A DNA stretch of 64,000 bases, from assembly GCF_001677475.2 (NCBI RefSeq), contig NZ_CP012498.1. One strand, 5' to 3'. Positions 12,820 to 13,316 of the stretch are shown here, piece by piece. Source of the DNA: Escherichia coli. GTDB lineage: Bacteria; Pseudomonadota; Gammaproteobacteria; Enterobacterales; Enterobacteriaceae. The notes beneath the pieces were generated by a model that saw nothing but the letters and a program-made list of their open reading frames with translations, was not told the origin of the DNA and made no database searches. Both the position numbers and the translations under genes were made by a program. The number at the start of each line of letters is the position of its first letter. Positions within the stretch are counted from its first letter, which is position 1.

Positions 12820-13237
12820 TTGCTGAGACTGATAAACATCAAACCTTAAAAAGGGTGAATGCTGAAAGGTTGCGTGGGCAGCCGTAGTGATGACAACGAC
12901 AGGTAAGACCTGGACTCGCTAAACCTGAATCTGTTCTAGAGATTAAAGCTCGCTGGGAGAATAAGGCGCGAGTCAGCGTATTACATAGGGGCCCTCAGCT
13001 TCACGGCTGCAACAAGATACTGTTACGGTGCAGGATGCTATGTTCTGTGGTGTGAAAATGCTTTGGTGCTAACGGTGCTCTCATCCAGCGCAGAAGATAA
13101 AATACTAGAAAGCTTCGTGGACAATGATGAAGGAAAATATCGTGTTTATTCCAGAAGCAGATGTAAGAACAGCATTGCTCACTCTACAGTGGTTATCGAA
13201 CCTTAATAAGAACCATCTGCATAGTGCACCAGGATCG

Positions 13238-13265
13238 CTCACTGACGCATATCTGCGTCAGTGAG
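13238..13265. repeat. Perfect 12-bp inverted repeat (CTCACTGACGCA / TGCGTCAGTGAG) with a 4-nt loop
   Basis: Read directly from the sequence; about 50 bp upstream of the tssL start, inside the non-coding flank following the IS110-family gene. Confidence 0.6.
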
Positions 13266-13316
13266 TAAAATATCAATTCCAGTTTATCGTTTCCGGGTAC
13301 AAAACATGTTATATGA

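What the first reader, a model, noticed from the sequence alone, without database searches (positions are those of the whole stretch)
12820..13316. Long non-coding flank of the IS110-family element with a perfect 12-bp hairpin: candidate structured RNA
Roughly 500 bp of non-coding DNA follows the IS110-family gene and contains a perfect 12-bp stem with a 4-nt loop at 13238..13265. Characterised IS110-family elements encode a structured guide (bridge) RNA in their non-coding end. The two other IS110-family copies here also carry non-coding flanks of roughly 260-280 bp (41905..42095 plus 40567..40640, and 62996..63274). Whether these encode such RNAs cannot be decided by eye.
Basis: inference. 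Interest (0 to 1): 0.45.

Follow-up and report, generated by a model that had tools for sequence, protein, structure and literature searches.

The report
Guide RNA relic beside unrelated hairpin
The 500-bp "flank" is two things: about 200 bp of a decayed ISEc11-type insertion sequence that still carries the target-recognition half of its known guide RNA, and about 250 bp of the secretion-system operon's own spacer, which holds the hairpin; both are ordinary.

Summary
The 12-bp/4-nt hairpin at 13238-13265 is real, and no sizeable ORF lies in 12820-13316. The stretch is not one IS flank. The IS110-family gene belongs to an ISEc11-family (IS1111 group) element, about 92% aa and 88.6% nt identical to ISEc11. 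It sits in the leader of an IS2-like fragment (11583-11670). The element runs 11671-13016, is frameshifted near 12395, and has lost its last ~80 bp, including the right subterminal repeat.

Its retained 3' non-coding part (12820-13016) holds a full copy of the published seekRNA/bridge-RNA target-binding module at 12897-12980. A covariance model built only from relatives scores it 86.7 bits (E 6e-19). Twelve stem pairs across 14 relatives show compensatory changes. The two guide patches match the IS2 site TGGAGAA|CAGA in the same register in which ISEc11's guides match GTGAAAATACTG. The donor-binding module is cut in half at 13016.

From about 13068 the DNA is the native tssK-tssL spacer. IS-free T6SS loci carry homologous sequence with an imperfect version of the hairpin at the same position, so the hairpin is not IS-derived.

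This is a degenerate new member of a known kind, of low to moderate interest.

The parts
11583..11670 (+). IS2-like left end fragment: terminal inverted repeat TATACTGGCCCC... through the orfA Shine-Dalgarno GGAGAA. This is the left half of the target site recognised by the guide RNA.
   Evidence: Aligns to the IS2 left end that precedes the same nested element in L001 and L003. The uninterrupted IS2 leader ...CATTGGAGAACAGATGATTG... is found at 100% identity in more than 1400 E. coli records. IS2 identity rests on the RefSeq product name 'IS3-like element IS2 family transposase'. This fragment explains the 4566-genome hit count.
11671..13016 (+). ISEc11-family (IS1111 group) insertion sequence. 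It starts TGTA+ATGAACGCATCTC and is truncated at its 3' end; about 80 bp are missing, including the right subterminal inverted repeat.
   Evidence: 92.1% nt identity to the full-length L001 copy and 88.6% to ISEc11. Homology ends at 13016 while L001 and L003 continue for 83 more bp to GGGATGCGTTCATATAGAG. GC is 47-57% against 29-41% in the surroundings.
11675..11687 (+). Left subterminal inverted repeat (sTIR) ATGAACGCATCTC.
   Evidence: Pattern search against the family sTIR ATGAACGCATCCC / GGGATGCGTTCAT finds the left copy only; no right copy is present in the window.
11804..12819 (+). DEDD transposase pseudogene, with a 4-nt deletion and frameshift near 12395.
   Evidence: Two overlapping ORFs, 11804-12595 and 12406-12819. 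The halves match NCBIfam NF033542 'IS110 family RNA-guided transposase' at profile positions 2-204 and 211-342. They are 92.4% and 91.2% identical to TnpEc11. The homologous plasmid copy is annotated 'frameshifted; internal stop'.
12897..12980 (+). seekRNA / bridge-RNA target-binding module, complete. Closing stem 12913-12919 with 12968-12974; CCT/AGG 12924-12926 with 12964-12966; apical hairpin 12939-12951.
   Evidence: Covariance model R1, built from 12 relatives without the window or L001, gives 86.7 bits, E 5.8e-19, covers the full model, and is the only hit in 64 kb. The consensus structure has compensatory changes in 5 of the 7 pairs of the closing stem.
12930..12938 (+). Guide patch V1, TCTGTTCTA. 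It is complementary to the top strand of the IS2 site (AGAA|CAGA).
   Evidence: It is hypervariable among relatives while the flanking columns are invariant. Its reverse complement TAGAACAGA matches IS2 GAGAACAGA at 8 of 9 positions. The same column block in ISEc11 reads CAGTATTTT, the complement of AAAATACTG in its published target.
12955..12962 (+). Guide patch V2, GGGAGAAT. It is identical to the top strand at the left junction (GGAGAA+T), so it is complementary to the bottom strand.
   Evidence: 7 of 8 positions match the left junction TGGAGAAT at 11664-11671. ISEc11 has GTGAAAAT here, which equals its target's left part.
12980..13016 (+). 5' half of the donor-binding module: guide ATTACAT (12980-12986, complementary to the left-end ATGTAAT) and an apical hairpin. 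The 3' strand (GGCC GGATATAGAGC TGC in relatives) is deleted.
   Evidence: Alignment A2 and RNAalifold. The guide covaries with the left-end extension in relatives (GTA, GTC, GAG, AAG types; 9 of 12 exact), and the 3' guide ATATA[G/A] covaries with the right end in 13 of 13.
13017..13067 (.). Junction segment of unknown origin, found only in this plasmid lineage.
   Evidence: Matched only in the 18 E. coli plasmids that share the whole arrangement.
13068..13316 (+). Native tssK-tssL (DotU) intergenic region, upstream of tssL.
   Evidence: BLAST matches at 70-76% identity from 13090, extended by alignment to about 13068, to the 338-371 bp tssK-tssL spacers of IS-free loci L004, L005, L006, L030 and L032. 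Indels of 1-2 nt and non-conserved stops show it is non-coding.
13238..13265 (.). Perfect 12-bp/4-nt-loop hairpin. It is a lineage-specific 'perfected' version of an ancestral imperfect inverted repeat of the T6SS spacer.
   Evidence: The homologous position in 6 IS-free or other loci keeps 78% of cells paired, against 23-47% in slid controls, but covariation is not significant. No U-tract follows it. It is present identically in plasmid locus L002.

Best explanation
The stretch 12820-13316 is a composite.

(1) 12820-13016 is the surviving part of the 3' non-coding region of an ISEc11-family (IS1111 group) insertion sequence. In intact relatives this region is transcribed with the transposase mRNA and processed into a seekRNA/bridge RNA. 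[quoted passage not shown] A second loop pairs with the element's own ends. The DEDD transposase uses this RNA to insert the circularised element at that site.

In the window the target-binding module (12897-12980) is complete. Its guides specify TGGAGAA|CAGA, the spot between the ribosome-binding site and start codon of IS2 orfA, and that is where the element sits, in an IS2-like left-end fragment. The copy is nevertheless a relic. The transposase is frameshifted, the donor-binding loop is cut in half, and the right end is gone, so it cannot move. At most it could supply a short guide RNA in trans.

(2) About 13068-13316, including the 12-bp hairpin, is the T6SS operon's own tssK-tssL spacer. 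The hairpin is a sharpened version of an inverted repeat found at the same place in IS-free operons. It is most likely a cis element of the tssL leader (mRNA structure or protein-binding palindrome), not an IS-encoded RNA.

Shown here: boundaries, homology, structure covariation, guide-target complementarity. Inferred: transcription, processing and activity of the RNA (from experiments on ISEc11) and any function of the hairpin.
For: Boundaries. Other copies share only 11575/11583-13016. L001 and L003 continue 83 bp further to a right sTIR that pairs with the left one. The left 88 bp is IS2.

Family. NF033542 hits on both ORF halves, and about 92% aa identity to TnpEc11 taken from the seekRNA paper's supplement. 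In ISEc11 the 3' non-coding region is essential, yields 82-nt and 154-nt transposase-bound RNAs, and is programmable.

Structure. Across 14 relatives (Escherichia, Photorhabdus, Xenorhabdus, Citrobacter, Edwardsiella, Affinibrenneria, Pandoraea, Ralstonia) 31 pairs were scored. 96.7% of cells are paired, 12 pairs have compensatory changes, 0 of 500 shuffles reach this, and slid controls give 28-39%.

Guides. The positive control reproduces the published ISEc11 logic: V1 = CAGTATTTT and V2 = GTGAAAAT against GTGAAAATACTG. The window guides fit the IS2 site in the same register. Across relatives, V2 matches its own left junction at 4.6 of 5 variable positions against 2.1 for other loci. V1 matches its own right junction at 7.3 of 9 against 4.5. 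Both give 0 of 20000 permutations.

Independent model. The covariance model has a single hit at 12897-12980, E 6e-19.

Hairpin is native..
Against: There is no expression data, and no sigma-70-like promoter is predicted on the + strand inside the element. The RNA would depend on read-through from tssK or the IS2-like end.

The module shows decay. There is an A.G mismatch at the top of the apical hairpin (shared with L001) and a G>T change in the donor-loop hairpin. The sister plasmid L002 also has AGG>AGA in the CCT/AGG helix.

The right junction is missing in the window, so the V1 match is to the consensus IS2 sequence, not to the copy's own flank. The nested IS2+ISEc11-like unit in the window and in L001/L003 could descend from a single ancient insertion, so independent use of the IS2 site is not demonstrated.

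For the hairpin, 7 sequences give no significant covariation, so a function is not shown.
Confidence: 0.87

Rival explanations
1. One reading: the whole ~500 bp is the IS's non-coding end, and the 12-bp hairpin is part of its bridge RNA.
For: The hairpin is unusually stable. IS1111-group elements do encode their RNA downstream of the transposase gene.
Against: IS homology ends at 13016. Full-length relatives end about 276 bp after the stop codon with a subterminal repeat, and none contains the hairpin sequence. The hairpin region is homologous to IS-free T6SS spacers. The family covariance model does not reach it.
Confidence: 0.02
2. The conserved 3' non-coding region acts as DNA rather than as a guide RNA (a transposase-binding site, or a terminator or 3' UTR of the transposase gene). 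On this view the guide-target matches are by-products of microhomology at insertion sites.
For: No transcript data exist for this copy, and the end-proximal part overlaps the region that forms the junction promoter in the circle.
Against: Compensatory changes preserve RNA helices. The hypervariable patches track each element's own flanks on both strands. For ISEc11 the region works in trans from a separate plasmid as an RNA, co-purifies with the transposase, is RNase-sensitive and is re-programmable.
Confidence: 0.04
3. The hairpin at 13238-13265 has no function. It is a neutral remnant of an old inverted repeat that happened to become perfect in this plasmid lineage.
For: Relatives have only an imperfect repeat (the inner 4-5 pairs are mostly broken), and covariation is not above shuffles. 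There is no U-tract and no conserved promoter hexamers; the -10-like TAAAAT is not conserved.
Against: The outer 5-6 pairs are kept in all 7 sequences, with one C-G to U-A exchange. 78% of cells are paired against 23-47% in slid controls. The repeat sits in a spacer whose last ~150 bp are strongly conserved upstream of tssL. Reaching a perfect 12-bp stem needs several coordinated changes.
Confidence: 0.4

Closest known systems
ISEc11 and its seekRNA (IS1111 family; Siddiquee, Pong, Hall & Ataide 2024, PMC11187229; Prosseda et al. 2006)
   Same: The transposase has the same conceptual 339-aa length and is about 92% identical. The 13-bp subterminal repeat is the same. The 3' non-coding scaffold is the same. 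The two guide patches occupy the same positions and order (the top-strand-complementary guide lies 5' of the bottom-strand-complementary one) and overlap at the insertion point.
   Different: The guides are re-written: TCTGTTCTA/GGGAGAAT against CAGTATTTT/GTGAAAAT. They specify the IS2 orfA leader instead of GTGAAAATACTG. Nucleotide identity is 88.6%. This copy is frameshifted and lacks the last ~80 bp (right sTIR and 3' half of the second loop).
Bridge RNA of IS110-family elements (IS621; Durrant et al. 2024, PMC11208160; Hiraizumi et al. 2024)
   Same: A two-loop RNA. One internal loop pairs with both strands of the target and the other with both strands of the donor ends. Durrant et al. predicted such RNAs in the right end of 93% of IS1111-group elements. 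The second loop here covaries with the element's ends.
   Different: It is encoded downstream of the transposase gene (right end), not upstream. The guide order is reversed relative to IS110-type RNAs (abstract). Long subterminal repeats are present. There is no sequence similarity to the IS621 RNA.
ISXne4 (natural re-direction of an ISEc11 relative, PMC11187229 Fig. 4)
   Same: The stems are conserved while the guide patches are replaced to match a different flank, the same pattern seen here and in the Xenorhabdus and Photorhabdus loci L008-L012.
   Different: The target differs. Here it lies inside another insertion sequence (IS2).

Membership tests
IS1111-group (ISEc11-family) seekRNA / right-end bridge RNA | Encoded in the long non-coding region downstream of an IS1111-type DEDD transposase gene | tested here: met
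   The transposase pseudogene 11804-12819 matches NF033542 and is about 92% identical to TnpEc11. The module lies 78-161 nt after its stop codon.
IS1111-group (ISEc11-family) seekRNA / right-end bridge RNA | Conserved secondary structure supported by compensatory base changes among relatives | tested here: met
   31 pairs, 96.7% of cells paired, 12 pairs with double changes, 0 of 500 shuffles, slid controls 28-39%. The window sequence keeps all three helices of the target module, with one A.G mismatch.
IS1111-group (ISEc11-family) seekRNA / right-end bridge RNA | Two short guide segments, the 5' one complementary to the target's top strand and the 3' one to its bottom strand, overlapping at the insertion point | tested here: met
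   V1 reverse complement TAGAACAGA and V2 GGGAGAAT against IS2 TGGAGAA|CAGA. The register is the same as in the ISEc11 control. The on/off-diagonal test across relatives gives 0 of 20000 permutations.
IS1111-group (ISEc11-family) seekRNA / right-end bridge RNA | Significant match to a covariance model of the family | tested here: met
   The custom model R1 (the window and L001 were excluded from its alignment) gives 86.7 bits, E 5.8e-19, at 12897-12980. Rfam 15 has no family that matches.
IS1111-group (ISEc11-family) seekRNA / right-end bridge RNA | Complete second (donor-binding) loop of the long form | tested here: not met
   Only the 5' strand and apical hairpin are present. The alignment stops at column 168 of 248, at 13016. 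The short 82-nt form alone sufficed for ISEc11 transposition.
IS1111-group (ISEc11-family) seekRNA / right-end bridge RNA | The RNA is made, processed and bound by the transposase | not testable with these tools
   No transcript data. No + strand promoter-like site inside the element. Shown experimentally only for ISEc11, ISPa11, ISKpn4 and ISPst6.
Intact IS1111-family insertion sequence | Pair of subterminal inverted repeats with short terminal extensions, and an intact transposase | tested here: not met
   The left sTIR lies at 11675-11687 but there is no right sTIR. The transposase is frameshifted. The copy is a relic.
IS110-group bridge RNA (IS621 type) | Encoded in the long left end, upstream of the recombinase gene | tested here: not met
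   The left non-coding end is only 133 bp and the conserved structured RNA is downstream. That applies to this element; copy 3 (63275->) is of the upstream type.
Intrinsic (Rho-independent) terminator, for the 13238-13265 hairpin | GC-rich stem followed directly by a U-tract | tested here: not met
   The scan finds no terminator-like site in 11250-13400. The stem is followed by GTAAAATATCAA.

The most novel reading that the evidence does not exclude
This branch of the ISEc11 family has been naturally re-programmed so that its guide RNA directs insertion between the ribosome-binding site and the start codon of IS2 orfA. That would make it an RNA-guided insertion sequence that specifically targets, and probably silences, another insertion sequence. 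It could then be carried to new places, such as this T6SS operon, as a passenger when the IS2 host moves. A secondary reading is that the conserved, lineage-perfected hairpin upstream of tssL is an undescribed cis-regulatory element of this AT-rich T6SS type.
Probability: 0.4. Interest if true: 0.4.

Novelty: new member of a known kind. Interest (0 to 1): 0.25.

Why it matters
It corrects the annotation of this locus: one 'flank' is really four pieces, namely an IS2 fragment, a nested ISEc11-like relic, a junction of unknown origin, and the native T6SS spacer.

It shows that the guide-RNA module of IS1111-type elements can be recognised and its target read directly from sequence, even in a dead copy. 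It adds one more natural example of guide re-programming, here to a site inside IS2.

It also gives comparative support for a donor-binding role of the second loop in the 'long seekRNA', whose role the 2024 seekRNA paper left open: the loop covaries with the element's ends. Durrant et al. had already predicted donor loops for the group.

None of this changes current understanding. The mechanism and the family are known, and this copy is inactive.

Tried and rejected
1. Rfam 15 on the whole window (gathering thresholds) and on 11280-13400 (E up to 10) gave only isrN elsewhere and two chance-level snoRNA/miRNA hits. There is no curated bridge/seekRNA family to match, so this absence says nothing.

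2. My first boundary call, IS = 11575-13016 (about 1442 bp, deceptively close to ISEc11's 1443 bp), was wrong. The left 88-96 bp are IS2, and the right end is a truncation.

3. An extended closing stem GTAAGACC.../...GTATTAC was suggested by the repeat finder. I rejected it because the outer part does not covary in relatives, whereas ATTACAT covaries with the left-end extension as a donor guide.

4. The 46-aa ORF 13124-13264, whose stop codon lies at the end of the hairpin's 3' arm, is not conserved. Relatives have early stops and 1-2 nt indels.

5. Terminator and promoter readings of the hairpin fail. There is no U-tract, and the only promoter-like hexamers are not conserved.

6. The origin of 11287-11582 and 13017-13067 was not found. 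They occur only in the same plasmid lineage, plus a weak 73-nt match in E. albertii plasmids.

7. The Prosseda 2006 ISEc11 paper and the reference record CP053751.1 could not be read. ISEc11 was instead recovered from plasmid pFORC43 using the protein sequence in the seekRNA paper's supplement.

8. The right-flank match for the Photorhabdus australis copies (L014, L015) is poor, as it is for L019. Not every copy sits in a perfect site.

Full report
OBSERVATION. The inverted repeat CTCACTGACGCA / TGCGTCAGTGAG with loop TATC lies exactly at 13238-13265. Folded as RNA it gives -23.0 kcal/mol, z = -5.6, and none of 200 shuffles is as stable. By my arithmetic about 0.02 such stems are expected by chance in 64 kb. 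Between the transposase stop (12819) and tssL/DotU (ATG 13317; RefSeq uses GTG 13341) no ORF exceeds 47 aa. The phrase 'flank of the IS' is not.

BOUNDARIES. Megablast against 5,426 complete E. coli genomes found 18 plasmids that share the whole tssK-IS-tssL arrangement. Other records share only 11575/11583-13016.

Reading two such copies (L001 in hprS, L003) changed the picture. What precedes the IS110-family element is the left end of IS2 (TAGACTGGCCCCCTGAATCTCC...GACTAGTCATTGGAGAA). The element proper starts TGTA-ATGAACGCATCCC. After the point where the window loses similarity, both copies continue for 83 identical bases to GGGATGCGTTCAT-ATAGAG, and then IS2 resumes with CAGATGATTGATG, its orfA start.

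The uninterrupted IS2 leader ...CATTGGAGAACAGATGATTG... occurs at 100% identity in more than 1,400 records. The downstream gene carries the RefSeq name 'IS3-like element IS2 family transposase'. The IS2 fragment also explains why 4,566 genomes 'matched'.

The window therefore contains these pieces:
- an IS2-like left-end fragment, 11583-11670;
- a nested element, 11671-13016, with a left subterminal repeat at 11675-11687 and no right one;
- a transposase with a 4-nt deletion near 12395;
- a 3' truncation that removes about 80 bp.

GC content agrees: 47-57% inside the element and 29-41% outside.

WHAT THE REST OF THE 'FLANK' IS. Positions 13090-13330 give BLAST matches at 70-76% identity to the tssK-tssL spacers (338-371 bp, unannotated) of T6SS loci with no IS there: E. 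coli M8 plasmid A, pWP9-S17-ESBL-11_1, the O104:H4 chromosome and others. Alignments place the start of homology near 13068 and show 1-2 nt indels and non-conserved stops, so the region is non-coding.

The hairpin sits at a homologous position in all of them, but as an imperfect repeat (GCTCAYCTGGCGAATATCAG..CCAGTGGGC). The outer 5-6 pairs are kept, with one C-G to U-A exchange. 78% of cells pair against 23-47% when the partner is slid. With 7 sequences, covariation is not above shuffles. There is no U-tract and no conserved promoter hexamers. The identical perfect hairpin is present in the sister plasmid L002.

The hairpin is therefore native T6SS spacer DNA, sharpened in this plasmid lineage. 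Its function, if any, is not shown. Segments 11287-11582 and 13017-13067 occur only in this lineage.

WHICH IS. Both ORF halves hit NCBIfam NF033542 'IS110 family RNA-guided transposase', covering profile positions 2-204 and 211-342. The TnpEc11 sequence printed in the supplement of Siddiquee et al. 2024 is 92.4% and 91.2% identical to the two halves. The DNA is 88.6% identical to an ISEc11 reference copy recovered from pFORC43, and 92.1% identical to the L001 type.

ISEc11 is the IS1111-family model element for the seekRNA. Its 3' non-coding region is essential in cis or trans and yields transposase-bound RNAs of 82 and 154 nt. [quoted passage not shown] Durrant et al. 2024 independently predicted bridge RNAs in the right end of 93% of IS1111-group elements.

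THE RNA. I collected relatives from one genome per species (20 loci) and from plasmids (Pandoraea, Ralstonia). Their 3' non-coding regions align end to end.

RNAalifold gives two modules. Counting pairs on the 14-sequence alignment gives 31 pairs, 96.7% of cells paired and 12 pairs with changes on both sides. None of 500 shuffles is as good, and partners slid by 1-3 columns give 28-39% paired.

Module 1 is a closing stem (GACTCGC/GCGAGTC, 5 of 7 pairs compensatory), a CCT/AGG helix and a small apical hairpin. They enclose an internal loop whose two strands each contain a hypervariable patch, V1 (9 nt) and V2 (8 nt), flanked by invariant columns.

Positive control: in ISEc11, V1 = CAGTATTTT (the complement of AAAATACTG) and V2 = GTGAAAAT. 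This is the published logic.

In the window, V1 = TCTGTTCTA (12930-12938; reverse complement TAGAACAGA) and V2 = GGGAGAAT (12955-12962). Against IS2's TGGAGAA|CAGA these give 8 of 9 and 7 of 8 matches (the latter counting the junction T). The register and the 4-5 nt overlap are the same as in ISEc11.

Across relatives with known flanks, V2's five variable bases match the element's own left junction at 4.6 of 5, against 2.1 of 5 for other elements' junctions. V1 matches its own right junction at 7.3 of 9, against 4.5 of 9. Permutation gives 0 of 20,000 for each.

A covariance model of module 1, built from 12 relatives without the window or L001, finds exactly one hit in the 64-kb window: 12897-12980 (+), 86.7 bits, E 5.8e-19, full length. 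Rfam has no matching family.

Module 2 is a second internal loop. Its 5' strand (ATTACAT in the window, 12980-12986) is complementary to the left-end extension ATGTAAT, and it changes with that extension in relatives (GTA, GTC, GAG, AAG types; 9 of 12 exact). Its 3' strand (ATATAGAG or ATATAAAG) copies the right end, with A/G agreement in 13 of 13. That is donor-binding-loop behaviour. In the window this module is cut after its apical hairpin, at 13016.

MECHANISM AND STATUS. The following is inferred from ISEc11 experiments, not shown here. In an intact sister element the RNA is co-transcribed with the transposase, processed and bound by it. It aligns target and donor so that the circular form integrates at the guided site.

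For this copy the guide module is intact apart from minor decay: an A.G mismatch at the top of the apical hairpin, shared with L001, and a G>T change in the module-2 hairpin. The element cannot move, because it has no right end, only half a donor loop and a frameshifted transposase. The same relic, with the same truncation point, is in the sister plasmids, so the events are old.

No + strand promoter-like site lies inside the element. Any transcript would come from tssK or IS2-end read-through.

The L001-type sister differs in V1 (TCTGCTCTG), which matches its own right junction AGAG|CAGA. Only about 17 E. coli records carry that type at 95% identity or more, while several hundred carry other ISEc11-like non-coding regions at 60-90%.

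COMPARISON AND NOVELTY. This is a member of the ISEc11/IS1111 seekRNA (right-end bridge RNA) family by location, scaffold, covariation, guide logic and model score. It fails only the tests of completeness (second loop, right repeat, intact transposase). It is not an IS621-type left-end bridge RNA.

The one mildly new point is the target. The guides are written for the IS2 orfA translation-initiation region, so this is one IS aimed at another. Whether the window and L001/L003 copies reflect independent hits or one ancient insertion that diverged together with its IS2 host cannot be decided from these data.

VERDICT. A guide-RNA gene lies in the IS's non-coding end, at 12897-12980, while the hairpin that prompted the finding belongs to the T6SS operon. 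The finding is a degenerate new member of a known kind. Interest 0.25.

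Noticed in passing
window 26265-26407 (-): Full-length Rfam hit to isrN (RF01396, Hfq-binding sRNA first described on Salmonella islands): 155.5 bits, E 8e-35. It is the only curated RNA family found in the 64-kb window.
   Followed up: no
window 40563-43200 (-): tnp 42096-43148; non-coding 42095-41905 and 40640-40567; IS3 40641-41904: The second IS110-family copy is IS1111-type, with subterminal repeats GGTCCCCACC / GGTGGGGACC. Its 3' non-coding region shows the same plan. A closing stem CCTGATGA/TCATCAGG (about 41996-41932) encloses a small hairpin, and two loop strands partly match its own flanks (ATGGTT 6 of 8; ATTT.CTT 6 of 9, by eye). 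The apical hairpin of the second loop (GGGCATCCATGCCC) is split by an IS3 insertion with a CCC duplication. It does not match the ISEc11-family model R1.
   Followed up: partly
window 62995-64000 (+): The third copy is IS110-type, with its non-coding part upstream of the transposase gene at 63275. It begins right where an IS911-like orfB breaks off (about 62994). A related E. coli copy shares only 63134 onward, so the first ~140 bp may be variable or not part of the element. Its ORF stops at 63823, which may mean it is also a pseudogene.
   Followed up: partly
window 13017-13022 and 13052-13063: The six bases immediately after the truncation point are ATACTG, the right half of the canonical ISEc11 target GTGAAA|ATACTG. 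GTGAAAATGCTT, 35 bp further on, matches that 12-mer at 10 of 12 positions (about 0.02 expected by chance in 300 bp on both strands). This element's own guides point to IS2, not to this sequence. I have no explanation.
   Followed up: no
L007 (Brenneria) ~1300-1607 and L016 (Klebsiella) ~2215-2400, relative to alignment: In two relatives the seekRNA-coding region is interrupted at about the same place, just after the GGTTGC..GCxxCC hairpin, by sequence that starts like an IS3-family inverted repeat (..AATAGTGGACAC..). Together with copy 2 in the window, that makes three cases of IS3-family elements landing inside IS1111-type non-coding regions.
   Followed up: no
window 11286-13341: The IS2 fragment plus ISEc11-like relic put about 1.7 kb between tssK and tssL of an otherwise intact-looking AT-rich T6SS operon (tssA-tssJ-tssK...tssL-tssM). 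The arrangement is fixed in 18 E. coli and 'Escherichia sp.' conjugative plasmids of 167-242 kb from cattle, food, a crow and a pig. Some of them have a further IS3-family insertion inside the relic.
   Followed up: partly
window 13260-13345 and homologous loci (alignment A3, columns ~255-335): The last ~80 bp before tssL (..TTCAATTACAGTTTATCGTTTCCGGGGACAAAACATGTTATATGAAT..TTATGTTATGGAGGTACTGGTG) are far more conserved than the rest of the spacer across T6SS loci that differ by 25-30% elsewhere. This suggests a functional leader or promoter region for tssL.
   Followed up: no
NZ_AP042653.1 plasmid 38551-38820 (hit H136): One of the sister plasmids carries a second, full-length ISEc11-like 3' non-coding region (81% identical to L001's) elsewhere on the plasmid. 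An intact relative could in principle supply transposase in trans. No equivalent copy is in this window.
   Followed up: no
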